From positions 1 to 64,000 of IMG/VR virus record IMGVR_UViG_3300011614_000002: a DNA stretch of 64,000 bases; one strand, written 5' to 3'. This DNA comes from a virus (taxonomy: Duplodnaviria > Heunggongvirae > Uroviricota > Caudoviricetes). This document shows, in pieces, positions 26,565 to 44,934 of this stretch. Under the pieces are notes generated by a model that ran no database searches, was not told the origin of the DNA, and saw only the letters and a program-made list of their open reading frames with translations. The translations under genes were made by a program, and so were the position numbers. Each line of letters begins with the position of its first letter. The first letter of the stretch is position 1.

Positions 26565-28523
26565 ATGACTTCGTTCCACAAGCCTGCACCGTTCAATTTC
26601 AAGACCCAGTACGGCCTTGGGTTCAATCCCCAGGATGATGAGATTGTCGTCGACTTCTTCTGCGGCGGCGGTGGCGCCGGTACCGGTCTAGAAATGGGCC
26701 TGGGCCGTACCGTCACTGTGGCCAAGAACCACAGCCCCGCGGCGATCAGCATGCACACCGCCAACCACCCCACTGCACGGCACTTCACCACCGATGTGTT
26801 CGAAGGGGATCCCGACACCGAATGCGGCGGGCGCCCCGTAGGCTGGTTCCACATGAGTCCGGATTGCACGCACCACAGTCAAGCCGCTGGCGGTCAGCCG
26901 CGGAAACGCGAGATCCGCAACCTATCGTGGATTGGGTTGAAATGGGCGGGGATGAAGCGCCCGCGCGTTATCAGCCTGGAGAACGTCAAGCAGATCCTGG
27001 CCTGGGGTCCCCTGATTGCGAAGCGCGATAAGGCTACCGGTCGTGTGGTGAAGGTCGACGGTACCGTAGCCGACGCCGGCGAGCGCGTGCCGGTCCACCA
27101 GCAGTTCTTGGTGCCGGATCCGAAGCGCAAGGGCCAGACCTGGCGCCGCTTCGTGCAGCTGCTGCAGGGCCTGGGCTATCAGGTGGAGTGGCAGGTAGGC
27201 CGCGCTTGCGACTACGGCGCGCCCACCAGCCGCGAGCGCCTGTTCATGATCGCCCGTTGCGACGGCCAGCCGATCATCTGGCCGGAACCGACGCACGCCA
27301 AGGTGCCGGCCAAGGGCCAGAAGCCATGGCGATCGGCCTCCGAGTGCATCGACTGGAGCCTGCCCTGCCCCAGCATCTTCGACCGGAAGAAGCCGTTGGC
27401 AGCAGCTACCCTGCGCCGTATCGCAAAAGGCATGCACAGGTTCGTCCTGGACGCTGCTGATCCTTTCATCGTGCCAATCGCCAACTGGTCGCAGGATGCG
27501 ACCCAATCTGCAGCAGACCCGCTGCGTACCGTCACCGCCTGGCCGCGTGGCGGTAGCTTTGCGGTTGCCAGCCCGATCATTGCCCCGGCGACGCATCAGG
27601 GTAGCGACCGGGTGAACGACCCATTGCAGCCCCTGCCCACTGTCACCTGCGCTAACCGAGGGGAGCAGATGCTGGTGAGCCCCACGCTGGTATCGGTCGG
27701 TTATGGCGAGCGGAACGGCCAAGAGCCACGCGTGCCAGGACTGGATAAGCCGCTGGGAACGGTAGTGGCCGGCGGAATCAAACATGCTGTGGCCGCCGCG
27801 CACCTGGTCAAATTCCGCTATGACTCGGCCGGCGCCGCTGCCGATGAGCCGATGCCGACCATCACCAGTGGTGGCAACTGCCAGCGCCCCGCTGGCGCGG
27901 CCCATGCCATGGGCATCGCCACCGCATTCATTGAGCAGGCCAACGGCGGCTTCAATGCAACGCCTGCACAGAGCGCAGAGCGCCCGATGACGACGGTGAC
28001 CAACTCAGGAAGCCAGCAGCGACTGGCAGTGGCCTCGCTGGCGACGCTGCGCCGCAACTGCACCGGGCAACCCATCACCGGCCAGGTGCCCGCGATCACC
28101 GCCGGCGCCGAACACCATGCGCTGGTGGAGTACCAGCTGGCGCCAGAGGTTGAAGCCGGCGCTCTGCAGGTGGCGGCCTTCCTGATGAGCTACTACGGCA
28201 CCGACAACACCAGCCGGCCGGACGACCCCTCGCCTACGGTCACCACCAAGGATCGCCTGGCGCTGGTCACCGTTACGATCCGGGGTACGCCCTACGTCGT
28301 AGTGGACATCGGCCTGCGCATGCTGCAACCCCGCGAGCTGTACCGCGCGCAAGGCTTCCCAGACGACTATCGCATTGACCATGGGCATGACGGCCGCAAG
28401 TTCACGAAGTCAGAGCAGGTGCATATGTGCGGTAATAGCGTCTCCCCGCCCCATATGGCGGCGATCGCCCGCGCGAACGACCCATGGCAGGTTCGGTCTT
28501 TAGACATGGTGACAGCGGCGTAG
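26565..28523 (+). CDS. DNA (cytosine-5)-methyltransferase, large target-recognition region
   Basis: Motif I DFFCGGGGAGTG, motif VI ISLENV, motif VIII RERLF, motif IX/X RELYRAQGFPDDY, plus GNSVSPP. The catalytic region reads SPDC rather than the canonical PCQ. Confidence 0.8.
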   Translation: MTSFHKPAPFNFKTQYGLGFNPQDDEIVVDFFCGGGGAGTGLEMGLGRTVTVAKNHSPAAISMHTANHPTARHFTTDVFEGDPDTECGGRPVGWFHMSPDCTHHSQAAGGQPRKREIRNLSWIGLKWAGMKRPRVISLENVKQILAWGPLIAKRDKATGRVVKVDGTVADAGERVPVHQQFLVPDPKRKGQTWRRFVQLLQGLGYQVEWQVGRACDYGAPTSRERLFMIARCDGQPIIWPEPTHAKVPAKGQKPWRSASECIDWSLPCPSIFDRKKPLAAATLRRIAKGMHRFVLDAADPFIVPIANWSQDATQSAADPLRTVTAWPRGGSFAVASPIIAPATHQGSDRVNDPLQPLPTVTCANRGEQMLVSPTLVSVGYGERNGQEPRVPGLDKPLGTVVAGGIKHAVAAAHLVKFRYDSAGAAADEPMPTITSGGNCQRPAGAAHAMGIATAFIEQANGGFNATPAQSAERPMTTVTNSGSQQRLAVASLATLRRNCTGQPITGQVPAITAGAEHHALVEYQLAPEVEAGALQVAAFLMSYYGTDNTSRPDDPSPTVTTKDRLALVTVTIRGTPYVVVDIGLRMLQPRELYRAQGFPDDYRIDHGHDGRKFTKSEQVHMCGNSVSPPHMAAIARANDPWQVRSLDMVTAA

Positions 28524-28801: not shown

Positions 28802-29809
28802 CTATAGCTCAGTTCGACTGAGCAGCTCGGCAGTTCCATCAGGAAACAGCTCTAGGTCGCAAACTTCAGCCTTGAAACCATGAGACTTGAAGTATTGGCC
28901 GATTTCTTCGAAATACTCCCTGTTCTCCGTAAAATTACACAAGTTGATAAGCGGGATTGCCGGCTTTGTCAGAGAAAATCCAGGCATTTCAGCCAGAACA
29001 CCTTCCTGAGAATGACTGAGCAGTACACCTACATTTCCCACGTTCAGCATGGTTTGGTAGGAGTCCACTCCGTTCACATTTGGCCACCTTCTCTTAAGGC
29101 CAGTCGCAATTGCGCTCAGAATTCCAATCTCTTCGAGATACAGCAGCTGACCGAATGGGAAGCCTGCATTCTCTAAGGCTCGGTTTTGGGTATCGTCTTG
29201 GAGCCTGAAGATAAACCCTTGCAGGACAAAGGGCGCAAGCTTGGCTATGAGTTCTGCATCTTCGGTGCTTAGATTCCGGATAAGGTCCAGGGTCCGCAAG
29301 CTATGGCTTCCAGGTGCTTTTACCTCGCCTGCGAGCAGCCGACCCCATATCTGCTGTAGGTCTTCAGCCGAAACCTCTCCTGCGTAATCTCGCCAACGCC
29401 GGATCCAGTCGCCGTCCACCGTGCGCTCTGGAGCCGGCGATGGATCCTGATGTAACTCTTCCTCAGCGCGCAGCAAGGCCTTAGCAACGTTTACTTCCCT
29501 GCGCAGGAGTTCATTGGTGTGCTGGTCTTGAACGATCGCAGGCAGCTCATCCAAATCGAATTCGGGCTCCAGTCGTTCCTCCACGCGAGCAATCCTGCGA
29601 TGGCGCGCTAGCTGGAAATCGGCCAGGGTCTTCTCACCACTCAGGATCTGTGCCGCATCACGCTCCCCCTGAGCCTCGATCCGCTTCGCGTCTGCCCGGC
29701 CATAGGCGTCGCGTCGCATCTGACCTGGTCTAAGCAAGGCGCCAACGCCGTTATCCGCGCAGGTCCTCCAAAGCGTCTGAACAAGCTCAGAAAAATTCCA
29801 ATCACCCAT
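28802..29809 (-). CDS. hypothetical protein (335 aa) in a low-GC island; candidate defence/moron gene A
   Basis: GC roughly 52%. No TM segment. No recognisable catalytic motif. Confidence 0.55.
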   Translation of the reverse strand: MGDWNFSELVQTLWRTCADNGVGALLRPGQMRRDAYGRADAKRIEAQGERDAAQILSGEKTLADFQLARHRRIARVEERLEPEFDLDELPAIVQDQHTNELLRREVNVAKALLRAEEELHQDPSPAPERTVDGDWIRRWRDYAGEVSAEDLQQIWGRLLAGEVKAPGSHSLRTLDLIRNLSTEDAELIAKLAPFVLQGFIFRLQDDTQNRALENAGFPFGQLLYLEEIGILSAIATGLKRRWPNVNGVDSYQTMLNVGNVGVLLSHSQEGVLAEMPGFSLTKPAIPLINLCNFTENREYFEEIGQYFKSHGFKAEVCDLELFPDGTAELLSRTEL

Positions 29810-29879
29810 CGGCTCTCTCCCAGGTGTCGACTTGTTCTATGACCACAGGAAACTCGCTTTTCTCGCTGTACGTGGATGG

Positions 29880-30344
29880 CAAAAATCCTAATCGGAACGT
29901 GCACAGCAGTGAAGTGGCCTAATTTCAGTGCAAGTGCTTGATAGCATTATAATATTTTTTTGAATTACTCTTGATTTAGTGTTTTTAAATGTTAAAACAT
30001 AAATACCCGAGGCTAATTATTATGATTTGTCGTTGTAGGGGGAATAACATAAAGAGAAAATAAACATGAGAAAATTACTTAAATATATAAGCATTGCAAT
30101 CACATTAGCAGTAACCGCATCTATCCCATCGTCTACAGTTCAACAATCTACGTCAGCGAAAGCACAGCAGGTGCTAGCTGCACCCGCTGCTTTAGGCGGA
30201 GGATGATAGCTCTTGGCGGCAGTTATGCCGCTCGGTCCGTCTCTCAGACGAATGTTACGGCGCCAGAGTCAGCGGTAAGCGTCCAAGCCATCGTATGGGA
30301 CTATGGCCAACGTGAGACGATGACTACCTTTTGATTACATAAAG
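29880..30344. other. AT-rich (about 30% GC) non-coding segment inside the low-GC island
   Basis: Extreme local GC drop. A 47-codon signal-peptide ORF (30066..30206, plus strand) lies inside. Confidence 0.6.
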
Positions 30345-31196
30345 CTACCAAAGCGGCTTTCTGACCTTAGTCTCTATTGGCTCCATGCGTATTTCATAAA
30401 GAGCAGCCAACACAGGAGCACGAACCCTCATGTCCGTGCCGAACCAGGAATTGTTCGCCATCTTTGCAGTGCTTTTTCTATCAAAATAATACGATTTAAA
30501 AAGATATACAGTGCTCGAATGTGTTAACAACGTGGTATGTGTCATACCCTTTAGAAAGAAACTTTGCTCTTTTAGTACAATTGAGGCGACCTCGTAATCC
30601 CACAGTAGGTCTCGGGTCCCTGGCATAGCCTGCGGCATATCTATTATTATTTTATTTGCAACTTCGAAGCGCTGTCTGTCTTCAATAATGTCGGCAACTT
30701 TAATTTCTGACAATTTTGCTGATAAATCGTCCAAAAACATATTCTGCCAGTGACTACCGACGATTCTTCTCTCTATACCTTGCGGAAGATGCCCATAGAA
30801 ATCGGCAAAATCCGTGCCTAAATTCGCTAAACGCCCCAACACCTTGAACAGATCTTCGAGAAACGTCTTGGATGTTGGATCAAGCGAGCGTATAGACTCT
30901 GACATCTTAGGTATCAGGGAGTCGGCCTCTTTCGCAATGTATGTGATTCTGGCCGTTTCTCTCGCTTTTCTGTACTGATACACGGCGAACACAAACGTTA
31001 TCACCGTAACAGCTTGACCTAGAAATTGAGCAAATTCATTCAGTCCGCTTTTTGTTACTGGCACGTAGACGACTACGGCGACAAATACAATGAACGCGAG
31101 TGAGGCAAGGCAAACAGGTAGAAGTCTAGGGTTTAGGAATTGGACGTCTAGGTAATTACCTAATCTCACTAGGTATAAGCGAATTGAATTCCACAT
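30345..31196 (-). CDS. 2TM membrane protein with cytoplasmic C-terminal domain (283 aa); candidate defence/moron gene B
   Basis: GC roughly 45%. TM helices LLPVCLASLAFIVFVAVVVYV and VTVITFVFAVYQY, followed by a soluble domain of about 200 aa. Confidence 0.6.
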   Translation of the reverse strand: MWNSIRLYLVRLGNYLDVQFLNPRLLPVCLASLAFIVFVAVVVYVPVTKSGLNEFAQFLGQAVTVITFVFAVYQYRKARETARITYIAKEADSLIPKMSESIRSLDPTSKTFLEDLFKVLGRLANLGTDFADFYGHLPQGIERRIVGSHWQNMFLDDLSAKLSEIKVADIIEDRQRFEVANKIIIDMPQAMPGTRDLLWDYEVASIVLKEQSFFLKGMTHTTLLTHSSTVYLFKSYYFDRKSTAKMANNSWFGTDMRVRAPVLAALYEIRMEPIETKVRKPLW

Positions 31197-31372
31197 AATT
31201 CACGCTGAATCCTTCCGGGCAATCCTTATAGCGATTCTAGCCTGAAGTCCCAAGACTTTGAGATAGATAGTGGGCGTAGCTGCAGCCTTGGCTTTCGTGC
31301 AGCATCAGGTGCGCACACGGAGATGAGCGTCGGGTGCCCTACCCAGCTCGCCTTCGCATAGTATTGTCCATG

Positions 31373-31717
31373 TCACCGGCCGCAATACCCATCGTACCGA
31401 TCGCCAGGCTCCTGCAGCTCCATCGGCATGTCTTCCCGCGCCATGTAGAACGGCACCCAGCCCGTCCAGCCGCCATTGGGCAAGAACTTCGACCGGATCC
31501 ACGTCTGCGCCTTGGCCTCGAAGGCGACGTCGCCACAGACAAAGCCAGAGGCCTTTCCTTCCCGCACATTGCGGACCTTCACTGAGTCGGGATTGCCCAG
31601 TTCGGACATCTCGCCCGCAGCGTCTTTAGCTTTGGATTCGAGCACGGGATCCGAGAACCCCATCAGGGCGAACGCTGCACCGCAGATGACAACTACGGCG
31701 CCCAGGGACTTCTTCAT
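31373..31717 (-). CDS. secreted/periplasmic small protein (114 aa)
   Basis: Signal peptide MKKSLGAVVVICGAAFALMGFS. GAGG Shine-Dalgarno 6 nt upstream. Divergent from the giant gene. Confidence 0.5.
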   Translation of the reverse strand: MKKSLGAVVVICGAAFALMGFSDPVLESKAKDAAGEMSELGNPDSVKVRNVREGKASGFVCGDVAFEAKAQTWIRSKFLPNGGWTGWVPFYMAREDMPMELQEPGDRYDGYCGR

Positions 31718-31804
31718 GCGCATCCTCTGCGTGGTTTGAAAACGGCGCGGATGGTACCAGAGCGCCTCGGCGCCGGTGCCCCGTCGTGACGCCAACATGG
31801 CGCC

Positions 31805-34800
31805 ATGAACAGACCTCACGCACCCCTGGCAGGGACTCTCCGGGTCCTACTGCTCAAAGCATCTAAGATCGCGCACCAGGCGGGTTTCTACCTGCAGGGT
31901 GGCCGCTGGCACAAGGTATCTCCGGAAAAGCCGGCCCCCGCCGGGCATCCGGTGCTTGCGCAGAAGCCCGAATCGGGCCATACGCGCATCACCGGCGAGA
32001 TGTGGCAGCAGCTGCACGATCAGCATCCAGCCAACTCGAACAAGGCGACGTACAGCAAGAAGCTGGACAAGCTCAAGGAGGCTTACCACGCGGGCGATAC
32101 GCACGCGATCCTGGGCGCCAGCTACCCCAACGACACCACCCACAAGAAGGTCGCTCATGTAGCGAACTTCGTTCTGGCCAACCTGGGCAGTGAGCACCAA
32201 GTGCATGCAGGGCTGAAACAAGGAACCCACCCTGCCCTCTCCCAGGCCCCCGCCGCTCCGGCACCGGCGCCGACGAACACCGAGTCCAGCCCCGCAACCC
32301 CCGCCCCAGCACCTGCAGCTGCCGCGCCCAAGGCCGGTAATTCCAGCATCGCCCTGACCCACACCCACTGGCAGTCCATCAAGGACGCTCACCCGGACAA
32401 CTCCAACAAGAAGGCCTTCGTCAGCAAGGTCGAGAAGATCCAGCAGGCCCACAGCGCCGGCGATGCCGATGCCATCCTGGGCATGAGCTACCCCAACGAC
32501 ACCACCGGCAAGAAGGTCGTGCACGTGGCCAACGCGGCCCTGGCGGACCTGGGTAGTGACCACAAGGTCCACGCCGGCCTCAAGCAGGACAGCCACGACG
32601 CCCTGGCGCAGAAACCAACGGAAACCCCAGCAGTTACCCCGTCTGAACCTGGCCCCAAGGACGGAGACACCAAGCAGGGCGCCGAAGGCGAACTGGTCTT
32701 CAAGGATGGCCACTGGCACAAGCAGGAAGACGCCAGCACCCGTACGGCCAGCACTGATGGCGCGACGGCCACAGACGTGACACCCAAGGGCCACGGTATC
32801 GATAGCCCGGAATCGTCTGACGTCGACATGGACAGCTACGCCGACCAGTACGGCGAGATGGTCAAGCTGGAGCAGGCCGGTGACGTCCAGGGCTTGAAGG
32901 ACTTCGCCGCCAAGCACCACAACGACCCCCAGCTCAAGAACCTGGCGCAACTGGCGAACCAGAAGCTCACCAAGCTGGCATCTGCGGCGGCGGAGAAACC
33001 AGCGGAAACGCCTTCGGTTACCGGCGGCACCGAAATCGAAAAACCCAAGCAGATCGTCGCCCCGACCGCTGCCGAGGTCGACGCGCTCAAGGCCGATCTG
33101 AAGGCCCTGGGCATTGGCGTGCGCGTGCTCAAGAGCAGCGGCGGCCTGATCGACGTCCGGCCCAAGCTGCCCGCAGGCGATGCCCTACCGCTGTTCACCC
33201 AGGACCAGTTGGCTCAGGTGGCCCAGGTCCTGGACAAGCACGGCATGACCTATGAGCTGTGCGCCTGGGCGGGCAAGACCATGGCCAGCTACTTTGCCGG
33301 TCAGGAAAAGAACGCCCTGAACCTGGTAGGCATGGCGCTGAACCACGACGGATCCCGCGGCACCAAGCCGCTGCCGGCGGCCACTGCCCCCGAGAAACCC
33401 ACGGTAACCACCGCTGAAGGCAGCGCAGTTACTGGCTTGGCCATGCCCAAATTCCTCGAAGGTGCCAAGACCACCGGCGTAGTGGCGCATTACCAGAAGG
33501 TGGCGCAGAAGGTGCTGGACCTGGCCTCGGCGGGAGATGCGGCCGGCCTGGCGCAGTTGAAGGCTGACGGCATGGCGCCCAAGACCGACGGCAAGGTCGG
33601 CAATACCTGGAAGGGCAAGACCGCCAACAGCAAGATCCTGCTGGCGCTGCATGATGCGGCCGCTACGCAGGTTGCCGGTGGCGCAGCCGCTCCTGCAGCA
33701 GCTGAAACCACCCCTGCTGCTTCCGCTCCGGACGCACCGACTGTTCCCGATGCGGCCCCGGCTGGCGGACTGCCAACCCCGCCCAAGTTCAAGAGCAACG
33801 ATGCACAACACCTGGCTAACGTCTGGCATCAGGTAGCCGAGCAGGGCAAGTACGCCGCGATAGCCCTGAGCGTAGAACAGGCCTCGACCACTACAGCCCT
33901 TGGAAACATTCCCGAAGCACCAGAGCTGGTGAGCTATGGGAAGGAGTTGCTAGCTAGCATGGCCGCGGCTGGCGCTGGCCCCAAAGAGGGCGACACCAAG
34001 ATGGGTGTCGAAGGCATGCTGGTGCTCAAGGATGGCCACTGGGTCAAGATGGACCAAGACGCTCACCCCATTGACGCCATTCCCATGCCGCCCCTGGAAG
34101 GCTTCTACAACCCGCAGAAGGTAGGCATTGCCCTCCAGGAGCTGAAGGCCAAGGTTAAGGCAGAAGGTCCGTCCGCCCTGAAGGGTGTGACGAAGAAGAT
34201 GTCCGCCACCGGCAAACTGATCACCAAGGTCGGGGGCTACAAGATCACGGGACACGTGAGCTCGGACAGTTCCCATTCGGCGGTCTACCACTACGTCGAA
34301 GCCCTGAAGACCGTGGCGGGCTCCCCGAAAAAGACCAAAGCCGCGGCAGCATCTGCAGCAGCAGCTGGCCCCGCGCCCTACGCGCCGCCGGAACCTGCGT
34401 CGGAATCCATAGACGGCTGGAAGCAGATCGGCCCCCAGGGTGGCTCCAACCCCGGCGGCAAGTTCGTAGACGACCAGGGCGTCGAATGGTACTGCAAGTT
34501 TCCCGGCGATCCGGACGTGGCCAAGAGCGAAGTGCTGGCGGCGAAGCTGTACGAAGCCGCGGGGATCACCGGCCAGGACTGCAAGCTGATCACCAAGGAC
34601 GGGAAGCTCGGCATCGCCAGCAAGTGGGTGGACGTCCAGAAGGCCGGCCCGGATGCCCTGGCCAAGGCCGAAGGGGTCGCCGAGGGCTTTGCCGTCGACG
34701 CCTGGCTGGCGAACTGGGACGTGGTCGGCCTGGCGTTCGATAACCTGCAGCTGGATGCCCATGGCCAGGCTGTGCGGGTCGATGCTGGCGGCTCCCTGGA

Positions 34801-36241
34801 GTACCGCGCCCAGGGCGGCAAGAAGGCCTTCGGCGAATCGGTCTCGGAGATCGACACGCTGCGCGATCCGAAGATCAACCCCCAGTCGGCCCAGGTCTTC
34901 GGCCACCTGACCGCCGCGGACATCACCGCCTCGGTGGCCAAGGTTGCCGAGGTCCCCGACGACGCCATCTATGACCTGGTCATGGAGTTCGGCCCGGGCA
35001 GCATGGCCGACAAAGCCCACCTGATCGACACGCTGATCGCCCGCAAGCAGGACCTGCTGGCCAAGTACCCCAAGGCGGCGAAGAAAAGCCAGAAAGCCAA
35101 GGTGAAGCCTGAAAAGCAGGATCCCACCGCCTTGAAGGTCGACCCCAGCCAGCTGCCGCAGCCGCACGACTTCCACAACTGGAACGGCCCAGGCAACGGC
35201 CTATCGTCCAAGACCCACGTCAACGACATGAACCTGAAGGCCGAGCAGGATCTGCTGGACTTCGCGGCCAAGGGCAACCTGATCGCGCTGAAGGACTATC
35301 ACTACGAGGCGGTCGACAAGGACACCGGCGCGCCGACAGGCCAGCAGCACATCGAGCAGCACCCGTCGCAGCACGTGAAGACCTACTGGTCCGACCTGGT
35401 CTCCACGCTGGGCTACATCGCCAACCCGCCGGAACAGCTCAAGCGCTTCAAGTCGGTCGTTGCCGCCGGCCTGAAGAAGGTCTCCGACGCCTTCGCATCG
35501 GCAGGCTATGGCACGACTACCTCCAAGGTGGCGGCGAACCAGCGCCTGGCGTTCTGGATCGCCCTGGGCCACACCAAACCGGTCGAAGCCCTGGTGCCCA
35601 ACCACGCCAGCCTGGAATTCCAGTCGACCCCTGTGGGCGTGCCCAAGATGACCGAGCAAATGAAGGCCGCGGCCAAGCAGGCCTATGCTAGCCTCGCTTC
35701 AGATCGCCTGGTCAAACGCTTCATCAACGGCATCCAGGCGTCGGGCACCTACAACGACAACTTCCGTGACGGCAAAATGGTCACTCACGATGGGAAAGAC
35801 GCTGTCGGCATGGTGCTCGATGCCTACTCCTACGCTACTGAGAAGCCCGAAGGCTTCGAGGTGTACAAGTGGGTGAGCTTCCCTGGCGACATGGGCAAGC
35901 AGATGCTGAACGCCAAGCCAGGCACCGTCTTCCAGAACCCGGGATCCATGTGCTGTTCGTACAACCCCACGGCCACCAGCGGCTTCGGTCCGGATCGGAT
36001 GCGGATCCGCTTCGCCAAGGGCTCGAAGGCCGTCGATAGCTTCGGCTCCGGTAGCTTCAGCAGTGAGCAGGAGATCACCACCCTGCCCGGCCAGCGGTTC
36101 GTCATCCTGTCGAGCAAGAAGGTGCACTGCCCGGTCAAACACAAGGAGCGCATCGAGCTTGACGTGCTGATGCTGCCCCCAGATGACACCTATGTGGCCG
36201 AACTGGAAGCCAATAAGGGGAAACATGGACAATCGTCTTGA
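31805..36241 (+). CDS. giant multidomain (polyvalent-type) protein: tandem N-terminal repeats, kinase-like core, C-terminal ADP-ribosyltransferase-like domain
   Basis: - N-terminal tandem repeat units: two copies of about 120 aa (YPNDTT(H/G)KKV(A/V)HVAN...VHAGLKQ).
- Second repeat family: KDGDTKQGAEGELVFKDGHWHKQ and KEGDTKMGVEGMLVLKDGHWVKM.
- Kinase-like core: KFVDDQGVEWYCKF, DAWLANWDVVGLAFDN and RVDAGGSLEY, resembling a HipA/PI3-4K-type catalytic loop and DxG.
- C-terminal ART-like motif: GSFSSEQEITTLPGQRFVI, matching the toxin (Q/E)xE-hhLPG signature, with a preceding S/T-rich stretch. Confidence 0.8.
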   Translation: MNRPHAPLAGTLRVLLLKASKIAHQAGFYLQGGRWHKVSPEKPAPAGHPVLAQKPESGHTRITGEMWQQLHDQHPANSNKATYSKKLDKLKEAYHAGDTHAILGASYPNDTTHKKVAHVANFVLANLGSEHQVHAGLKQGTHPALSQAPAAPAPAPTNTESSPATPAPAPAAAAPKAGNSSIALTHTHWQSIKDAHPDNSNKKAFVSKVEKIQQAHSAGDADAILGMSYPNDTTGKKVVHVANAALADLGSDHKVHAGLKQDSHDALAQKPTETPAVTPSEPGPKDGDTKQGAEGELVFKDGHWHKQEDASTRTASTDGATATDVTPKGHGIDSPESSDVDMDSYADQYGEMVKLEQAGDVQGLKDFAAKHHNDPQLKNLAQLANQKLTKLASAAAEKPAETPSVTGGTEIEKPKQIVAPTAAEVDALKADLKALGIGVRVLKSSGGLIDVRPKLPAGDALPLFTQDQLAQVAQVLDKHGMTYELCAWAGKTMASYFAGQEKNALNLVGMALNHDGSRGTKPLPAATAPEKPTVTTAEGSAVTGLAMPKFLEGAKTTGVVAHYQKVAQKVLDLASAGDAAGLAQLKADGMAPKTDGKVGNTWKGKTANSKILLALHDAAATQVAGGAAAPAAAETTPAASAPDAPTVPDAAPAGGLPTPPKFKSNDAQHLANVWHQVAEQGKYAAIALSVEQASTTTALGNIPEAPELVSYGKELLASMAAAGAGPKEGDTKMGVEGMLVLKDGHWVKMDQDAHPIDAIPMPPLEGFYNPQKVGIALQELKAKVKAEGPSALKGVTKKMSATGKLITKVGGYKITGHVSSDSSHSAVYHYVEALKTVAGSPKKTKAAAASAAAAGPAPYAPPEPASESIDGWKQIGPQGGSNPGGKFVDDQGVEWYCKFPGDPDVAKSEVLAAKLYEAAGITGQDCKLITKDGKLGIASKWVDVQKAGPDALAKAEGVAEGFAVDAWLANWDVVGLAFDNLQLDAHGQAVRVDAGGSLEYRAQGGKKAFGESVSEIDTLRDPKINPQSAQVFGHLTAADITASVAKVAEVPDDAIYDLVMEFGPGSMADKAHLIDTLIARKQDLLAKYPKAAKKSQKAKVKPEKQDPTALKVDPSQLPQPHDFHNWNGPGNGLSSKTHVNDMNLKAEQDLLDFAAKGNLIALKDYHYEAVDKDTGAPTGQQHIEQHPSQHVKTYWSDLVSTLGYIANPPEQLKRFKSVVAAGLKKVSDAFASAGYGTTTSKVAANQRLAFWIALGHTKPVEALVPNHASLEFQSTPVGVPKMTEQMKAAAKQAYASLASDRLVKRFINGIQASGTYNDNFRDGKMVTHDGKDAVGMVLDAYSYATEKPEGFEVYKWVSFPGDMGKQMLNAKPGTVFQNPGSMCCSYNPTATSGFGPDRMRIRFAKGSKAVDSFGSGSFSSEQEITTLPGQRFVILSSKKVHCPVKHKERIELDVLMLPPDDTYVAELEANKGKHGQSS

Positions 36242-36713
36242 TGTGAACATGCAGGACGGCCTGGCGGCCGCTGCAGCTGGCACCGAACGGCACAACTACC
36301 TGGGCGATGCCCAGGTGGTGAACCAGCTGGTCCGCAATTTCTTCGCTGGCGTCTTCTCCGAGCGCGCCAAGTTCCACCAGGGCGGCAACGATGAAGGCGC
36401 CACGGCGGCCATCGAGCAGCTGTGCCGCCACTACGCATCGATCTTCATGGGCGAGAGCGGTGGCTACGTCGCGCAGCCCTGGAACAGCCCCCATCGTCTG
36501 GGCATCTTCCTGCGCGTGGTGACGCCAGACGTGAACGACTACCCCACGCCGGCCGAGGCCTATTTCAACTTCCTGGCCCTGCAGGCGCTGGAAGCCGCCA
36601 TCGCCCTGGAAGAGGGCCATATGACGGATGCCGAAGTGCAGGCCGGCATGACCGAAGTCGTGGAAGACGCTGTGGCCGTGCTGCTGGGCCAGAAAGCCGG
36701 TGCCCAGGCATGA
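36225..36713 (+). CDS. hypothetical protein overlapping the 3' end of the giant gene; candidate immunity/partner
   Basis: AAGGGG Shine-Dalgarno 6 nt upstream of the ATG at 36225. The stop is ATGA-coupled to the Nudix gene. Confidence 0.5.
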   Translation: MDNRLDVNMQDGLAAAAAGTERHNYLGDAQVVNQLVRNFFAGVFSERAKFHQGGNDEGATAAIEQLCRHYASIFMGESGGYVAQPWNSPHRLGIFLRVVTPDVNDYPTPAEAYFNFLALQALEAAIALEEGHMTDAEVQAGMTEVVEDAVAVLLGQKAGAQA

Positions 36714-37546
36714 GCCGCCGGGTCCTGCTGTGCAAGGCGCACGTGAAAGGCCACGCCCGCAAGGATGGCACCTACGTGAAGCCCTACGACACCAAGGCGC
36801 CCACCGCGGCGCCCCAGGCTGTGCACCACCATCCGCGGGCGAATGACCAGGGCGAGCCGGTCGAGGTCAAGCAGCCCAGCCATGCCAGCGCGCCGAGCAC
36901 CTGGCACAGCGCCGGGGCCGTAGCGACCTTTCTGCCTGACGGCGACGTGCCGCATACCCTGAACGGCATCCCGCTGACCACCTGGCGCGACCACCCCAAG
37001 ACCAACGATGGCTGGGAGTTCACGGACGGCATCAACGACGACCTGGACGAACCGCACATGACGCTGCCCAAGGGCAAGTACGCGGCCAGCGGCGTGGCGA
37101 TCGTCGAGCCCGACGGCCGGGTCTGGCTGATCTGCCCGACGAACCAGTTCGGCGGCTACAAGGCGAGCTTCCCCAAGGGCACGGCCGAGCCTGGCCTGTC
37201 CCTGCAGGCCAACGCCCTGAAGGAGGCCTTTGAAGAGTCCGGCCTGAAGGTCGAGATCACCGGCCTGCTGGGTGACTACGAGCGCACCACGTCCAAGGCC
37301 CGCATCTACCTGGCGCGTCGCACCGGCGGCACGCCAACGGCCATGGGCTGGGAGAGCCAGGCGGTCCAGCTGGTGCCCAAGACGCAGCTCTACGACCACC
37401 TGAACATGTGGTCGGACCATGGCATCGCCGAAGCGCTGGGCGCGGGACCTGCCCCCAAGAAGCCTGCCCCTGCGCTGGCAGTACCGGGCAAGATCGCGCA
37501 GAAACCTACCGGAACCACCGGCGGTTACCAAGGAAATCTATTCTAA
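36710..37546 (+). CDS. Nudix hydrolase
   Basis: Nudix-box-like segment GGYKASFPKGTAEPGLSLQANALKEAFEESGL (KEAFEESGL corresponds to REUxEExGU). Confidence 0.6.
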   Translation: MSRRVLLCKAHVKGHARKDGTYVKPYDTKAPTAAPQAVHHHPRANDQGEPVEVKQPSHASAPSTWHSAGAVATFLPDGDVPHTLNGIPLTTWRDHPKTNDGWEFTDGINDDLDEPHMTLPKGKYAASGVAIVEPDGRVWLICPTNQFGGYKASFPKGTAEPGLSLQANALKEAFEESGLKVEITGLLGDYERTTSKARIYLARRTGGTPTAMGWESQAVQLVPKTQLYDHLNMWSDHGIAEALGAGPAPKKPAPALAVPGKIAQKPTGTTGGYQGNLF

Positions 37547-37622: not shown

Positions 37623-37973
37623 ATGTGGATCTGCCTGAATAACGCGTTTCTTTCCATCGTTTCCAAGGACTGCCAGCCGGATGAGCTGCTGGTGCGCGCC
37701 CGGGTCCCCGGCCACATCGAAGCCGTGTTCCCCACGGCGAAGGTCAAGGAAACCATCGGTAACGACTACCAGTTCCGCGCCGCGATCAAGCGCAGCGACG
37801 TGGCGGATGCCCTGGTGCAGCAAGCCGAATCGATCAGCTACGGCAATTTCAAGGACTCGGTCCGGATCAAGTCATTGGCCAGCGCCTACAGCTCGGTCTG
37901 GGGCGTGATGGCACGGTTGCAGCCCGTGGCGCCCTACTCCAGCCGCGCCCGCCGCCAAAACGACCTGTTCTAA
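37623..37973 (+). CDS. hypothetical protein (116 aa)
   Basis: ORF immediately downstream of the operator. Confidence 0.45.
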   Translation: MWICLNNAFLSIVSKDCQPDELLVRARVPGHIEAVFPTAKVKETIGNDYQFRAAIKRSDVADALVQQAESISYGNFKDSVRIKSLASAYSSVWGVMARLQPVAPYSSRARRQNDLF

Positions 37974-37984
37974 GGAGTCCGACC

Positions 37985-39667
37985 GTGAACGCAGTAGTTG
38001 AGAATTTCGAAGGTACGCTGGTCGAAGATGTCTCGGAATTCTTCGCCCCGATGGCCACCGACCTGGTGCAGTCTCTGGTTGGCCAATACGACGCCACCCG
38101 CAAGCGCATCGACGTCATGGCGGCCGCTGTCTCCAGCGACGCCTGTCGGGGCGTGCTGCACTACTTCGTCGAGGGCAACACTCACGATCAGCGCCACAGC
38201 ATGCCCACGACGGTCGACACGCTGTTCGGCATCGAGGGCGCCATGGGCCAGCTCAATGCCGATTTCTGGAGCCGCGCCCTGCGCATGACCGACGTGCTCG
38301 ACTACATGCCGCAGAAGCGCCGGGATGAATGGTTCGAGCAGATCAAAAACCCGCTCGGCATCAAGAAGGACAAGTACGCCACCGAATACGTCCAGCCGCC
38401 GCTACCGATGTTCGAGGAAGCAACTGTTCGTTCCACCCTGGCGGGCCTGCTCCATGCGCGCGCCCAGTTCCTGGCCGAGCGCGTGGACGGCATCTTCCGC
38501 GCCCTGAGCCGCGAGCACGTGACCAACTGCCCCCAGGGCTTCAACAAGCGCATGATCCTGCTGCGGGCGATCACCAGCTATGGCACGGTGGATCACACCA
38601 CCGCCGGCGTGATCAACGACCTGCGCTGTGTCATCGCCAAATTCATGGGCCGCGATGAGCCGAAGTGGAATGACACCAGCGGCGTCATCAGCTTCGCCCG
38701 CCAAGACAACGGTGCGTGGGTCGGGATCGACGGCAACGCCCTGCGCATCCGGATCTACAACGGGGTAGGCACGGCGCATCTGGAGGTCCATCCGCAGATG
38801 GCCTGGCGGCTTAACGCAATCCTGGCCAGCCTGTACCCGACTGCCATCCCGTCTGAGTTTCGCGAGAAGCCCAAGCGCGCCCGCAAGATCAAGGACTTCG
38901 AGCTGTTCGAACGCCCCCTGCCCTTCAAGGTGCTTGAGCTGCTGTCCGGCATGAAGTCCGCCTGGCGCCGCCGGGAAAACCCAGGCTTTCGCCAGCACCC
39001 CTTCGTGGACATCCCCCGGACGCGTGTGCTCTCGGCCCACGACCGCGACAAAGCGACCCTGGCCGAAGCCGAAAAGGTGCTGGAAGCCATCGGCGGCGTG
39101 CCGGACAAGGAGGGCAACTGCTCCTTCTGGCGCTTCGACTATGAGCCGGGCCAGGTGCTAGGCCAGATCCTGTGCTCCGGCTGCATCCCCGACCACAAGA
39201 GCCACCAGTTCTACCCTACTCCGGACAGTCTGGCGGCTGACGTTATCGCCGCGGCAAACATTGGCCCAGCCGACAGCTGCCTGGAACCCGAGGCCGGCCA
39301 GGGTGGACTTGCAGACCTGATGCCGATTGACCGAACCTTGTGCGTAGAGATCAGCGCGCTGCACTGCCAGATCCTGAAGGCCAAGGGGCACAACGTCGTC
39401 GAGGCCGACTTTCTGAAGTGGCAGGCGCCGGGTACGTTCGACCGCATCGTCATGAACCCGCCCTTCTCCGAAGGCCGCTGGCAGGCCCACCTGCAGCACG
39501 CCGCGGCGATGGTCGCAGCCGATGGGCGTCTGGTGGCAGTGCTGCCGGCCAGCGCCAAGGGCAAGCCGCTGCTTGATGGGTTCGACCTGAAGTGGTCGCG
39601 GATCTACAACGACCAGTTCGCCGGCGCCAGCGTGTCGGTCGTCATACTGACGGCCACGCGCACCTGA
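37985..39667 (+). CDS. N6-adenine DNA methyltransferase (gamma-class) with an N-terminal domain of about 400 aa of unknown function
   Basis: Motif X QFYPTP, motif I LEPEAGQGGL and motif IV IVMNPPF. Confidence 0.75.
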   Translation: MNAVVENFEGTLVEDVSEFFAPMATDLVQSLVGQYDATRKRIDVMAAAVSSDACRGVLHYFVEGNTHDQRHSMPTTVDTLFGIEGAMGQLNADFWSRALRMTDVLDYMPQKRRDEWFEQIKNPLGIKKDKYATEYVQPPLPMFEEATVRSTLAGLLHARAQFLAERVDGIFRALSREHVTNCPQGFNKRMILLRAITSYGTVDHTTAGVINDLRCVIAKFMGRDEPKWNDTSGVISFARQDNGAWVGIDGNALRIRIYNGVGTAHLEVHPQMAWRLNAILASLYPTAIPSEFREKPKRARKIKDFELFERPLPFKVLELLSGMKSAWRRRENPGFRQHPFVDIPRTRVLSAHDRDKATLAEAEKVLEAIGGVPDKEGNCSFWRFDYEPGQVLGQILCSGCIPDHKSHQFYPTPDSLAADVIAAANIGPADSCLEPEAGQGGLADLMPIDRTLCVEISALHCQILKAKGHNVVEADFLKWQAPGTFDRIVMNPPFSEGRWQAHLQHAAAMVAADGRLVAVLPASAKGKPLLDGFDLKWSRIYNDQFAGASVSVVILTATRT

Positions 39668-39722
39668 TACCTATCCGGGGCCAATAGGCCCCCTTTTCCA
39701 TCTTCAACAGCGAGAAACTACC

Positions 39723-43941: not shown

Positions 43942-44934
43942 CTAAATGTCCAGTGCTATTTGATCCTTTGCGACAACCTGGTTCAACGAGGCGAGTTTGC
44001 TCAGCCGGGCTTCGGCTTGCTCCCAGGTTTCTCCGGGGTTGGCGTTCTTCGAAATGTAATCGCGTGACAAGGGTCCCAAATTTCTCAAGGGGGCCTTTTC
44101 GACGGATGGCGCATCCTGAGGTGTGGTCTGCTTGGTTTGACTTGAACCAGTTGGTCCGACTGGTGTTACGGCGCTGGTTGCCATCGCGACAGAGCGGAAC
44201 GTGAACTTCAACCGGTCGGCCACGCGCCCCTTCTTGAGCACCTCGTATTCGACGAACATCCCGGCGCCTTCAGGCAGCTCGGCAATCGCAGGATCCAGCA
44301 CACGCGCCTGGAGGTTGTTGATCCGTTCATAAGCCTTGCCCAAGCAGAGCATTTCGCGGAAGTCGGTCAGCGACACCACGTAGTACCCGGCCCCGTCGAT
44401 TTCGTACCGCACCAGCAGCTGGAACAGGCGTATGGCATGGATGGACTTGAGCTGCACCACTCGGCGCAGACGGTACCGCGTGAAGTCACCCGTCAGGGCT
44501 GACAGGTAGGGCTCTATGCTGGGCGTGAAGAAGAGTTCGATCCAGGGCTCATAGCGTGGCGTGCCCTTCTCGAAGATCCAGCGGAAGTCGCTGTCCTTCG
44601 TGTTCTTGCCTGTCCCGCTGATGATGCGTACCGTCCGCTCATACAGGGTCGACGCCGCCGTCTTGATTGCGTCATAGGCCTGCTTCTCATCCATGCTGTA
44701 CGTGGCAGCGAACTCTCCGGCGTAGATCCGGATCGGGTTGATCAGCGGTTTGCGGGAATCGATCTTGGACAGAGCCAGCAGCAGCAGGCGCTGTTCCTGG
44801 AGTGTCAGCTTGTAAGCTGCTTCGATCAGGTGGTTGGACTTAGCGATCCAATCACCTTCCTTGGGGATTAGGACATCGTCGGTCATGACGACTCTCGTTG
44901 TTGGGTTGGCGGGGCCAGCATAGACCTCAATCAA
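43942..44934 (-). CDS. repA: Rep_3-family (RepA/pi-like) iteron-binding replication initiator
   Basis: N-terminal segment IAKSNHLIEAAYKLTLQEQRLLLLALSKID is typical of Rep_3 initiators. An iteron array lies immediately upstream. Confidence 0.75.
   Translation of the reverse strand: MIEVYAGPANPTTRVVMTDDVLIPKEGDWIAKSNHLIEAAYKLTLQEQRLLLLALSKIDSRKPLINPIRIYAGEFAATYSMDEKQAYDAIKTAASTLYERTVRIISGTGKNTKDSDFRWIFEKGTPRYEPWIELFFTPSIEPYLSALTGDFTRYRLRRVVQLKSIHAIRLFQLLVRYEIDGAGYYVVSLTDFREMLCLGKAYERINNLQARVLDPAIAELPEGAGMFVEYEVLKKGRVADRLKFTFRSVAMATSAVTPVGPTGSSQTKQTTPQDAPSVEKAPLRNLGPLSRDYISKNANPGETWEQAEARLSKLASLNQVVAKDQIALDI

What the first reader, a model, noticed from the sequence alone, without database searches (positions are those of the whole stretch)
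31805..37546. Giant kinase-like plus ART-like protein with an overlapping small ORF and a Nudix hydrolase
The 1478-aa protein combines three elements:
- two families of internal repeats;
- a central region with kinase-type motifs (ATP-binding Lys context WYCKF, catalytic-loop-like DAWLANWDVVGLAFDN, DxG-like VDAGG);
- a C-terminal region ending in the ART toxin-like signature S-rich...EQEITTLPGQRFVI.

It is followed by a translationally coupled 163-aa ORF that overlaps its last 17 nt, and then an ATGA-coupled Nudix hydrolase.

Multidomain kinase/ART proteins of this size in phages are usually virion-delivered polyvalent effectors. An ART coupled to a Nudix enzyme has not, to my knowledge, been characterised. 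Nudix enzymes can cleave ADP-ribose conjugates. The module could therefore be an injected host-modifying toxin with a reversal or self-protection enzyme, or a new counter-defence system.

The gene sits between two methyltransferases and next to a low-GC island, which is a typical accessory hotspot.
Basis: partly seen in the sequence, partly recalled or inferred. Interest (0 to 1): 0.85.

Follow-up and report, generated by a model that had tools for sequence, protein, structure and literature searches.

The report
Phage kinase–ADP-ribosyltransferase effector with Nudix partner
A roughly 88-kb phage encodes a 1478-residue protein that joins a HipA/CtkA-like kinase to an Alt/VIP2-type ADP-ribosyltransferase, and it is always followed by a small helper protein and a Nudix hydrolase; this is most likely a head-packaged, injected host-modifying module, so it is an uncharacterised variant of a known kind rather than a new kind.

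Summary
- The 1478-aa ORF (31805-36241) is real.
- A 162-aa ORF overlaps its last 17 nt.
- A Nudix gene follows in an ATGA overlap.
- Both internal repeat families are present.

Structure prediction and fold search support both domain calls.
- Residues about 1284-1459 form a VIP2/C3/iota-type ART. ExE is invariant, but Lys replaces the catalytic Arg and C-C-S replaces S-T-S.

The three genes form a tightly linked module.
- In 55 evaluable IMG/VR loci, all 49 with the ART domain have the Nudix, and 46 have the small ORF.
- The 6 loci without the ART domain have neither; at least five of those six are MuF-kinase fusions.
- Fusions link the parts: Nudix to the big protein, Nudix to the kinase, and the small protein to Nudix.
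- Portal and MuF fusions, and a location inside head-gene modules, point to packaging into the head.

The Nudix is closest to Ap4A hydrolases and RNA-decapping enzymes, not to ADP-ribose pyrophosphatases. The idea that it reverses the ART or protects the producer is not supported.

Phage polyvalent effectors with ARTs are already described. This family, its kinase and the three-gene module are not.

The parts
31805..36241 (+). Gene for the 1478-aa multidomain effector. Order of parts: leader, helical modules, kinase, conserved alpha/beta domain, ART.
   Evidence: ORF list. 95 homologous clusters. GenBank relatives are annotated ADP-ribosyltransferase.
31838..31918 (+). Conserved N-terminal leader, aa 12-38: 'LRVLLLKASKIAHQAGFYLQGGRWHKV'.
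   Evidence: Conserved at the N-termini of most homologues. A leader HMM hits the N-termini at E 1e-10 to 1e-16. Its function is unknown; a packaging or targeting signal is my inference.
31988..32632 (+). Two strong copies of a helical module of about 90 aa (aa 62-159 and 185-276).
   Evidence: 59% identity, E 1e-37. jackhmmer E 1e-40 and 7e-34.
32651..32722 (+). Motif copy 'GPKDGDTKQGAEGELVFKDGHWHK' (aa 283-306).
32822..33016 (+). Weak third copy of the helical module (aa 340-404).
   Evidence: jackhmmer E 3e-4.
33485..33730 (+). Weak fourth copy of the helical module (aa 561-642).
   Evidence: jackhmmer E 3e-4. The A2 HMM also cross-hits aa 564-601.
33977..34048 (+). Motif copy 'GPKEGDTKMGVEGMLVLKDGHWVK' (aa 725-748).
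34406..35089 (+). HipA/CtkA/PI3-4K-like atypical kinase domain (aa about 868-1095). Invariant residues: G880/N882 (GSNPGG), K898, E909, D972, N980, D993.
35102..35653 (+). Conserved alpha/beta domain before the ART (aa about 1100-1283). It contains a fifth copy of the helical module ('SSKxHVNxxN...GNL...HPSxHV').
   Evidence: Alignment A2 invariants S35, N41, N44, P88, P109 in segment numbering. Model secondary structure. Function unknown.
35654..36181 (+). Alt/VIP2/C3-type (R-S-E clade) ADP-ribosyltransferase domain (aa about 1284-1459). It carries K1355 in place of Arg, C1383-C1384-S1385 in place of S-T-S, and E1421-x-E1423.
   Evidence: Foldseek hits to VIP2 1qs2, Plx2A, C3bot, CDTa and iota Ia at E 3e-8 to 1e-6. 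Profile A2 against VIP2: E 2.6e-11. 21 of 41 homologous segments pass Pfam PF03496. Motif census.
36225..36713 (+). Gene for a 162-aa partner protein. It overlaps the big ORF by 17 nt and the Nudix gene by 4 nt (ATGA).
   Evidence: Sequence. Homologues sit in the same position in phages Jeremy (28% identity) and ST4 (32%) and in L004 (37%). Present in 46 of 49 ART-bearing loci and 0 of 6 ART-less loci. 290 clusters, of which 3 are fused to NUDIX.
36710..37546 (+). Gene for a 278-aa Nudix hydrolase. It has a conserved N-terminal extension of about 120 aa that includes the 'KAHVKGHARKDGTYVKPY' motif. The Nudix box is at aa 157-179: G-x5-L-x7-K-E-A-F-E-E-S-G-L.
   Evidence: Pfam NUDIX E 3.4e-11. 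58% identity to ST4_107. The profile matches Aquifex Ap4A hydrolase at E 1.5e-11. 544 homologous clusters at 60-73% identity.
37623..37973 (+). 116-aa ORF of unknown function. It lies between the Nudix and the MTase genes and is syntenic in relatives.
   Evidence: A gene of about 120 aa occupies the same place in Jeremy and ST4. No family hits.
37985..39667 (+). DUF4942 + SAM-dependent DNA methyltransferase; last gene of the apparent operon.
   Evidence: PHROG 6263 DNA methyltransferase E 8.5e-217; Pfam DUF4942 E 7.5e-18.
39677..39702 (+). Terminator-like GC hairpin followed by a T-rich tail, directly after the MTase gene.
   Evidence: Consensus scan. No terminator-like site lies between the end of the big gene (36241) and 39677 on the + strand; the one + strand site upstream, 32151-32165, is a weak hairpin inside the big ORF. 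This is a pattern match only.

Best explanation
The 1478-aa protein is a phage polyvalent effector. It is made late, packed into the head and injected with the DNA.

**The two enzyme domains**
- One is a HipA/CtkA-like Ser/Thr-type kinase.
- The other is an Alt/VIP2-type, probably arginine-directed (ExE) ADP-ribosyltransferase.
- Together they would modify host proteins at the start of infection.

**The two partner genes**
- The translationally coupled 162-aa protein and the Nudix hydrolase belong to the same functional unit.
- They work with the ART-bearing effector, probably as a complex. The small protein acts as an accessory or adaptor subunit of the Nudix.
- The Nudix probably hydrolyses a nucleotide-diphosphate-linked compound in the infected cell. 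Candidates are a dinucleoside polyphosphate, an NAD-type or Np4N-type RNA cap, or an ADP-ribose derivative. It is not an antidote for the producer cell.

**What is shown and what is inferred**
- Shown: the folds, the conserved catalytic residues, the gene linkage and the fusions.
- Inferred: packaging, enzyme activities, targets and the Nudix substrate.
For: **Folds and motifs**
- Kinase.
- ART.

**Linkage of the three genes**
- Of 55 evaluable IMG/VR loci, 46 have ART + small ORF + Nudix and 3 have ART + Nudix. The other 6 have none of the three.
- The same triad occurs in phages Jeremy and ST4 and in a Kaistia prophage.

**Fusions**
- Nudix inside the big protein: P0086, P0088, P0093, P0095.
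- Nudix-kinase fusion downstream of an ART protein and the small ORF: L042, L044.
- Small protein fused to Nudix in both orders: P0146, P0237, P0208.

**Packaging**
- The kinase domain is fused to a portal domain in P0094.
- It is fused to MuF in 5 of 6 ART-less loci.
- The fused P0086 protein sits between MuF and the prohead protease and capsid genes.
- In the window the operon ends 1.2 kb upstream of the large terminase gene.
- T4 Alt, of the same ART clade, is head-packaged and injected (PMC5512222).

**Nudix relatives**
- Ap4A hydrolase 3i7u E 1.5e-11, then Ndx1, RppH and DCP2.
Against: - The window protein itself has no MuF or portal domain, and no virion proteomics exist for any relative.
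- The gene lies among DNA-methyltransferase genes, which could mean early, non-packaged expression.
- Lys replaces the catalytic Arg and C-C-S replaces S-T-S in the query clade. ART activity may therefore be weak or altered.
- The Nudix box lacks its first Glu and has Lys for Arg.
- The loci sampled are related phages, so the 49/49 against 0/6 count is not a set of independent events.
- Two of the three small-protein-Nudix fusions have the native gene order. They could arise from a one-base assembly error at the ATGA overlap. Only P0208 (reverse order, seen in two assemblies) is robust.
Confidence: 0.6

Rival explanations
1. It is an intracellular effector that is not packaged. The operon is expressed inside the infected cell, as T4 ModA and ModB are, or by a phage-plasmid or prophage. 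It would act beside the neighbouring methyltransferases as an anti-restriction or takeover module.
For: - The gene is flanked by a C5 MTase and a DUF4942-MTase.
- The query protein has no MuF, portal or protease domain.
- A terminator-like site separates the operon from the terminase region.
- The window carries a Rep3 initiator, and a relative (Touem01) is predicted to be temperate and carries a ParA-like partition protein (PMC11256456).
Against: - The kinase domain is fused to portal and MuF in relatives.
- The fused Nudix-kinase-ART orthologue sits inside a head-morphogenesis module.
- The ART clade is the one that contains head-packaged Alt (PMC5512222).
Confidence: 0.2
2. It is a toxin-immunity module. 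The ART (or the kinase) is a toxin, the overlapping small ORF is its immunity protein, and the Nudix detoxifies by-products. The module would serve prophage or phage-plasmid addiction, superinfection exclusion or abortive infection.
For: - The small ORF lies immediately downstream and is translationally coupled, as in many ART toxin-immunity pairs.
- Its presence tracks the ART domain, not the kinase.
- The module occurs in integrated prophages such as the one in Kaistia.
- One ART fold-search hit is a Listeria ART-ARH toxin-immunity pair.
Against: - The small protein matches no known immunity family, Pfam or PADLOC model, or PDB sequence.
- It is found fused to Nudix, not to ART.
- The Nudix is fused into the effector itself in relatives.
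- The size, the repeat modules and the MuF and portal links fit a delivered effector.
Confidence: 0.12
3. In this clade the ART domain is a pseudo-enzyme kept as a binding or scaffold domain. The protein would act only as a kinase, with the Nudix.
For: K1355 replaces the NAD-binding Arg and C-C-S replaces S-T-S in all 11 sequences of the query clade. 74 of 85 homologues keep Arg. The query segment alone does not reach Pfam PF03496.
Against: ExE is invariant in 84 of 85 sequences. The third Ser of the motif and the 'VFQNPG' context are kept. The region is the best-conserved part of the big protein within the clade, at 72-76% identity against about 38% at the N-terminus. Lys keeps the positive charge.
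Confidence: 0.15

Closest known systems
Phage polyvalent proteins (Iyer, Burroughs, Anand, de Souza, Aravind 2017, PMC5512222; extended in PMC9503650)
   Same: - A large multidomain phage protein that combines several host-modifying enzyme domains with uncharacterised helical modules.
- Homologues add ART-PolyVal (PF18760), InPase (PF18823), WGR, GNAT and Nudix domains.
- It is associated with portal-terminase packaging genes.
   Different: [quoted passage not shown] Here an Alt/VIP2-type ART is the C-terminal domain.
- The kinase family described there is a truncated Ser/Thr/Tyr kinase from phages of Verrucomicrobia and Bacteroidetes. The kinase here is HipA/CtkA-like.
- The fixed ART-small protein-Nudix gene triad is not described there.
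Phage T4 Alt (head-packaged R-S-E ADP-ribosyltransferase) and the VIP2/C3/iota toxin family (Pfam PF03496)
   Same: - The ART fold and the ExE motif match.
- The family profile hits VIP2 at E 2.6e-11.
- Half of the homologues pass PF03496.
- The predicted route is the same: head packaging and injection.
   Different: - The query has Lys for the catalytic Arg and C-C-S for S-T-S.
- It is fused to a kinase and to about 850 aa of repeat modules.
- It is accompanied by the small protein and the Nudix.
- Packaging is not demonstrated.
Helicobacter pylori CtkA, and HipA-family kinases (with CotH, MavQ and PI4K type II as structural neighbours)
   Same: - A conserved beta3 Lys, alphaC Glu, catalytic-loop Asp and Asn, and a DxG Asp are present.
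- CtkA is also encoded on a mobile element and translocated (PMC7366825 as listed; the details are from my own knowledge).
   Different: - Only 13-18% sequence identity.
- No Pfam HipA_C membership; hits are weak and below threshold.
- The catalytic loop reads 'WLxNWDxxGxxxDN', with a longer Asp-Asn spacing.
- There is no HipB-type antitoxin.
- The domain is embedded in phage effectors or fused to MuF or portal domains.
MuF-fused phage effector and toxin proteins (MuF polymorphic toxins; SPP1 gp7 / Mu F carriers)
   Same: Relatives of the kinase domain are C-terminal cargo of MuF in 5 of 6 ART-less loci, once together with a Zeta-toxin kinase domain.
   Different: The window protein has no MuF domain. 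It has its own conserved N-terminal leader instead.
Aquifex aeolicus Ap4A hydrolase (PDB 3i7u), Thermus Ndx1 and RppH-type Nudix enzymes
   Same: These are the best sequence-profile matches of the Nudix family across the whole Nudix fold (E 1.5e-11 for 3i7u). The EE pair of the Nudix box is conserved.
   Different: - There is an extra conserved N-terminal domain of about 120 aa.
- The first Glu of the box is Leu or Ile and the Arg is Lys in most members.
- The enzyme is obligately linked to an ART effector.
- The substrate is unknown.

Membership tests
R-S-E ADP-ribosyltransferases (Alt/VIP2/C3; Pfam PF03496) | ART fold: N-terminal helices plus a split beta-sandwich | tested here: met
   AF2 model pLDDT 90.7. 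Foldseek hits to VIP2, Plx2A, C3bot, CDTa and iota Ia at E 3e-8 to 1e-6.
R-S-E ADP-ribosyltransferases (Alt/VIP2/C3; Pfam PF03496) | Sequence membership: Pfam gathering score, or a significant profile match | tested here: inconclusive
   The query alone gives no Pfam hit. The family profile hits VIP2 at E 2.6e-11, and 21 of 41 aligned homologues pass PF03496.
R-S-E ADP-ribosyltransferases (Alt/VIP2/C3; Pfam PF03496) | Catalytic Arg (the NAD+ phosphate-binding R of R-S-E) | tested here: not met
   K1355 in the query and its 10 closest relatives. R in 74 of 85 homologues.
R-S-E ADP-ribosyltransferases (Alt/VIP2/C3; Pfam PF03496) | S-T-S motif | tested here: not met
   C1383-C1384-S1385. Only the third Ser is conserved, in 83 of 85 sequences.
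R-S-E ADP-ribosyltransferases (Alt/VIP2/C3; Pfam PF03496) | Catalytic E-x-E (ARTT loop) | tested here: met
   E1421-Q-E1423, invariant in 84 of 85 sequences.
R-S-E ADP-ribosyltransferases (Alt/VIP2/C3; Pfam PF03496) | NAD+-dependent ADP-ribosyl transfer | not testable with these tools
   Needs an enzyme assay.
HipA/CtkA/PI3-4K-like atypical kinases | Bilobal kinase fold | tested here: met
   [not shown]
HipA/CtkA/PI3-4K-like atypical kinases | ATP-binding Lys on beta3 paired with an alphaC Glu; catalytic-loop Asp and Asn; metal-binding Asp (DxG) | tested here: met
   K898, E909, D972, N980 and D993 are invariant in 35 sequences. They fall on strand 40-44, on helix 49-64, and on the loop and strands after helix 104-113 of the model. 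The residue-to-role mapping is my inference; no structural superposition was printed.
HipA/CtkA/PI3-4K-like atypical kinases | Pfam HipA_C / HipA_2 membership | tested here: not met
   Only 10 of 35 members give sub-threshold HipA_C hits (best E 0.0014). The query gives none.
HipA/CtkA/PI3-4K-like atypical kinases | Phosphotransfer activity and substrate | not testable with these tools
   Needs an enzyme assay or a phosphoproteome.
Phage polyvalent proteins (PMC5512222) | Two or more effector domains in one polypeptide of a phage with portal-terminase packaging | tested here: met
   Kinase plus ART. Terminase and portal genes are in the window.
Phage polyvalent proteins (PMC5512222) | Physical packaging in the virion and injection | not testable with these tools
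   Only indirect evidence: portal and MuF fusions, and a head-module location in relatives.
Nudix hydrolases | Nudix fold / Pfam PF00293 above cut-off | tested here: met
   43.7 bits against a cut-off of 21.1.
Nudix hydrolases | Nudix box G-x5-E-x7-R-E-U-x-E-E-x-G-U | tested here: inconclusive
   The box reads G157-x5-L163-x7-K171-E172-A-F-E175-E176-S-G178-L. The EE pair and E172 are kept, the first E is Leu and R is Lys. ST4's copy is canonical.
ADP-ribose pyrophosphatase subfamily of Nudix | Specific similarity to characterised ADPRases / ADP-sugar pyrophosphatases | tested here: not met
   The profile gives ADP-sugar pyrophosphatases only at E about 0.05. Ap4A hydrolase scores 1.5e-11. 'YjhB ADP-ribose pyrophosphatase' names in databases are generic COG labels.
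ART toxin-immunity pairs | The downstream protein belongs to a known immunity family (ARH, Tri1-like and others) or binds the ART | tested here: not met
   No Pfam, PHROG, NCBIfam, PADLOC or PDB match. Binding is not testable here.

The most novel reading that the evidence does not exclude
The ART, the small protein and the Nudix may form one injected enzyme system in which the Nudix acts on the ART's substrate or product, giving chemistry not yet described in phages.
- One version: the Nudix trims protein-ADP-ribose to a phosphoribosyl mark that host ADP-ribosylhydrolases cannot remove. This would be a two-step logic like that of Legionella SidE.
- Another version: the Nudix processes NAD-capped or Np4N-capped RNA in concert with a ModB-like 'RNAylating' ART.
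- In both, the small protein would be the specificity subunit.
- The unusual K / C-C-S / ExE active site would then reflect a changed donor or acceptor.
Probability: 0.1. Interest if true: 0.85.

Novelty: new variant of a known kind. Interest (0 to 1): 0.55.

Why it matters
**Why it matters**
- The module is widespread. At least 571 IMG/VR stretches encode the kinase domain. There are 544 clusters of the Nudix and 290 of the small protein.
- It characterises a whole clade of myoviruses of about 85-97 kb, some phage-plasmid-like, that infect Pseudomonas, Aeromonas and other Proteobacteria.
- No member has been studied.

**What it adds**
- It places an Alt/VIP2-clade ART inside a true polyvalent protein.
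- It adds a HipA/CtkA-like kinase to the list of head-delivered phage cargo, carried by MuF, by portal fusions or by polyvalent proteins.
- It defines a fixed ART-small protein-Nudix triad whose chemistry is unknown.

**Why it is testable**
- Cultured relatives exist (Jeremy, Dolphis, ST4, Touem01), so packaging, targets and the role of the Nudix can be tested directly.
- If the kinase and the ART act together on the host, this would be a new example of phage takeover through two protein modifications.

Tried and rejected
**Searches that found nothing**
- Pfam, PHROGs, NCBIfam and PADLOC on the whole big protein and on the small ORF gave no hits.
- phmmer of the big protein against PDB sequences gave nothing.
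- The kinase profile against PDB sequences gave only a chance-level CBS-domain hit (E 0.027). The fold had to be found from the predicted structure.
- The small-ORF profile against PDB gave nothing.
- Literature searches found no paper on this module or on the kinase in phages.

**Tests that did not work**
- I asked whether the big protein's leader and the Nudix N-terminus are one homologous signal. An HMM of the big-protein leader does not hit Nudix N-termini. However, the Nudix-type 'GYxRKDGTxVxPH' motif does recur in several big-protein homologues. I record this as an observation, not as a shared signal.
- A self-BLAST script printed nothing, so I used pairwise comparisons instead.
- The afdb50 fold library was not available.

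**Readings rejected**
- Tail fibre or purely structural protein: the folds are enzymatic and the catalytic residues are invariant.
- Housekeeping MutT unrelated to the upstream gene: 49/49 synteny plus fusions.
- ADP-ribose-specific Nudix: not supported by profile similarity.

Full report
**1. The observation**

The window is high-GC phage DNA (about 0.64). A low-GC stretch lies at 29-31 kb, with GC 0.53 and 0.44.

ORF 31805..36241 (+) encodes 1478 aa. Three points fix the gene boundaries.
- The stop TGA at 36239-36241 lies inside a second ORF. That ORF starts at ATG 36225, preceded by AAGGGG, so the overlap is 17 nt. It encodes 162 aa.
- The second ORF ends in an ATGA overlap with a third ORF, ATG 36710..37546, 278 aa. 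The third ORF passes Pfam NUDIX at 43.7 bits against a cut-off of 21.1.
- The upstream ATG 31805 is the real start. The leader 'RVLLLKASKIAHQAGFYLQGGRWHK' is conserved at the very N-terminus of most homologues. The public 1429-aa call (P0001) starts 49 codons too late.

Both repeat families are real.
- A helical module of about 90 aa occurs at aa 62-159 and 185-276 (59% identity, E 1e-37).
- Weaker copies of it lie at 340-404 and 561-642. A fifth copy lies inside aa about 1135-1215, shown by cross-hits of the C-terminal HMM.
- The motif 'GPKxGDTKxGxEGxLVxKDGHWxK' occurs at aa 283-306 and 725-748.

The two flanking methyltransferases are confirmed.

**2. What the big protein is**

No family library or PDB sequence search recognises the whole protein. 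Homologues are plentiful: 95 clusters, mostly on contigs of 85-97 kb.

Cultured relatives are Pseudomonas phages Jeremy, Dolphis and Touem01 and Aeromonas phage ST4. In three of these (Jeremy, Dolphis, ST4) the protein is annotated 'ADP-ribosyltransferase'.

Precomputed Pfam hits on homologues show a shuffling architecture:
- PF03496 ADPrib_exo_Tox at the C-terminus;
- WGR, ART-PolyVal, InPase and GNAT domains;
- in four clusters, a NUDIX domain;
- in one cluster, a portal domain.

*Kinase domain.* I aligned aa 855-1100 with 34 homologous segments (A1).
- Invariant residues are G880/N882 (GSNPGG), K898 (WYCK), E909, W967, N970, D972, N980, D993 and G995.
- The AlphaFold model is confident: pLDDT 93, pTM 0.90.
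- Foldseek against the PDB returns H. pylori CtkA first (E 2.7e-7, TM 0.62). All 50 hits listed are kinases.
- Ten of 35 members give weak, sub-threshold hits to Pfam HipA_C.
- K898 lies on a strand and E909 on the following long helix. The D972...N980 loop and D993 follow the helix at model residues 104-113. This is the canonical kinase order; the mapping of residues to roles is my inference.

The domain is an atypical kinase of the HipA/CtkA/PI3-4K group, and no Pfam model covers it.

*ART domain.* I aligned aa 1100-1478 with 40 homologous segments (A2).
- The model is confident: pLDDT 90.7.
- Foldseek returns VIP2, Plx2A, C3bot, CDTa and iota Ia at E 3e-8 to 1e-6.
- The family profile hits VIP2 sequences at E 2.6e-11. 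The R, STS and ExE columns are in register.
- 21 of 41 segments pass PF03496 on their own. The query does not.
- ExE (E1421, E1423) is invariant.
- The query and its ten closest relatives have K1355 where 74 of 85 sequences have the catalytic Arg. They also have C-C-S where canonical members have S-T-S.

Fold and ancestry are therefore clear. Whether this particular copy keeps normal activity is open.

**3. The three genes are one module**

The order big protein, protein of about 165 aa, Nudix recurs in Jeremy, ST4 and a prophage of Kaistia sp. 32K.
- The small proteins are 28-37% identical to the window's copy.
- The Nudix is 58% identical to ST4's copy.

A scan of IMG/VR with the kinase alignment found at least 571 relatives. 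I searched the 79 loci fetched with HMMs of the kinase, the C-terminal region and the small protein, and with the Nudix sequence. Fifty-five loci were evaluable.

| Content of locus | Loci |
|---|---|
| ART + small ORF + Nudix | 46 |
| ART + Nudix, small ORF not detected | 3 |
| None of the three | 6 |

- The small ORF starts within about -90 to +40 nt of the big ORF's stop. The Nudix gene follows directly.
- Five of the six ART-less proteins are MuF-kinase fusions, and one of these also carries a Zeta-toxin domain. The sixth has no Pfam hit.
- The small protein and the Nudix therefore travel with the ART domain. The kinase is a separable cargo domain.
- These loci are related phages, so the counts are not independent events.

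Fusions tie the parts together.
- Nudix lies inside the big protein in P0086, P0088, P0093 and P0095.
- In L042 and L044 the order is ART protein, small ORF, then a Nudix-kinase fusion.
- A profile search of 1.84 billion representatives found 290 clusters of the small protein. Nearly all are stand-alone proteins of 150-180 aa, but three are fused to NUDIX.
- Of those three, P0208 has the reverse order (Nudix then small protein) and occurs in two assemblies. It cannot be a read-through artefact.

**4. How it most likely works**

*Packaging (inferred).*
- The kinase domain is fused to a portal domain in P0094.
- It is fused to MuF, the classical carrier of head-delivered cargo, in the ART-less loci.
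- The fused Nudix-kinase-ART protein P0086 sits between MuF and the prohead protease and capsid genes. Its small-ORF partner is directly downstream.
- In the window the operon runs from the big gene through the small ORF, the Nudix and a 116-aa ORF to the DUF4942-MTase. No terminator-like site lies between these genes. A GC hairpin with a T-rich tail follows at 39677.
- The operon lies just upstream of the large terminase (40899-43508) and the portal gene.
- The ART clade is that of T4 Alt, which is packed in the head and injected (PMC5512222; PMC9503650).

*Activities (inferred).*
- The kinase would phosphorylate host proteins on Ser or Thr.
- The ART would ADP-ribosylate host proteins. ExE motifs are typical of arginine-specific members; this is established knowledge of the family, not a test made here.

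*Nudix.*
- Its family profile is closest to Aquifex Ap4A hydrolase (E 1.5e-11), then Ndx1, RppH and DCP2.
- ADP-sugar pyrophosphatases score only about 0.05.
- It is the most conserved part of the module, at 60-73% identity over 544 clusters.
- It is sometimes part of the delivered polypeptide.
- This argues for a role in the infected cell, not for a producer-cell antidote. That role would be to remove a dinucleoside polyphosphate, an RNA cap or an ADP-ribose-derived molecule, or to process the ART's product.

*Small protein.* Its fusion to Nudix suggests an accessory subunit. An immunity-like role toward the ART remains a rival explanation.

**5. Comparison with what is known**

The kind is known. 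Iyer et al. described phage polyvalent proteins carrying ARTs, kinases, GNATs and InPase (PMC5512222). They later argued that ARTs and Nudix enzymes are often head-packaged (PMC9503650).

This family differs in three ways.
[quoted passage not shown] Here one is.
- The kinase family described there is a truncated Ser/Thr/Tyr kinase from phages of other phyla. The kinase here is HipA/CtkA-like.
- The fixed ART-small protein-Nudix triad is not mentioned in either paper, nor in any paper retrieved.

The papers on relatives Mecenats66/Dolphis and Touem01 do not discuss the gene and report no virion proteomics.

**6. Verdict**

- The 'reversal or self-protection' reading of the Nudix is not supported.
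- The ART active site is non-canonical.
- This is a new variant of a known kind: widespread, uncharacterised and experimentally tractable. It is not categorically new. Interest 0.55.

Noticed in passing
window 28802-31819 (minus strand): A low-GC island (GC 0.44-0.53) holds three minus-strand genes: a DUF2806 protein (28802-29809), a 283-aa protein with predicted membrane segments (30345-31196), and a small signal-peptide or lipoprotein-like ORF (about 31373-31725, 'MRMKKSLGAVVVICGAAF...'). It lies between the C5 methyltransferase and the effector gene. Those two genes are directly adjacent in the Kaistia prophage (L006). It looks like an inserted accessory (moron) cassette.
   Followed up: partly
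window 43942-44934 (minus strand): A Rep3-type plasmid replication initiator (Pfam Rep3_N E 5.6e-34, Rep3_C E 1.2e-14) lies between the large terminase and the portal gene. The relative Touem01 is reported to carry a ParA-like partition protein. Together these hint at a phage-plasmid lifestyle.
   Followed up: no
window 36722-36787, and homologues P0010, P0060/61, P0073, P0081, P0092: The short motif 'KAHVKG[HY]xRKDGTYVxP[HY]' at the N-terminus of the Nudix recurs at N-termini or between domains of several big-protein homologues (E 4e-6 to 4e-3). It occurs twice in the L042 Nudix-kinase fusion. It resembles the 'LLLKA...GRWHK' leader and the 'LVxKDGHWHK' motifs of the big protein, but an HMM test did not show homology. 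It could be a common linker or targeting hairpin.
   Followed up: partly
window 37985-39667; L001 11501-13186; L002 8968-10608: GenBank relatives annotate this gene as 'RE endonuclease'. It matches PHROG 6263 DNA methyltransferase over its full length (E 8.5e-217) and has DUF4942 plus a SAM-MTase domain. The endonuclease label is probably wrong or incomplete.
   Followed up: partly
window 26565-28523: The C5 cytosine methyltransferase is unusually long (652 aa). The Pfam DNA_methylase match is split into three stretches, which suggests a large insertion in the variable or target-recognition region.
   Followed up: no
window 31805-31951: The public gene call for this protein (P0001, 1429 aa) starts at an internal GTG and omits the conserved 49-residue leader. 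No obvious Shine-Dalgarno sequence precedes ATG 31805.
   Followed up: yes
L003 15997-18585; L073 5228-12406: Zeta-toxin/AAA_33-type kinase domains occur next to, or fused with, the HipA/CtkA-like kinase cargo: an 862-aa protein downstream of the portal-kinase fusion, and a MuF-Zeta-kinase fusion. Some phages may deliver two different kinases.
   Followed up: no
window 49344-50666: A GDSL-like lipase/acylhydrolase domain protein (440 aa) lies within the head-gene region, just after the portal gene.
   Followed up: no
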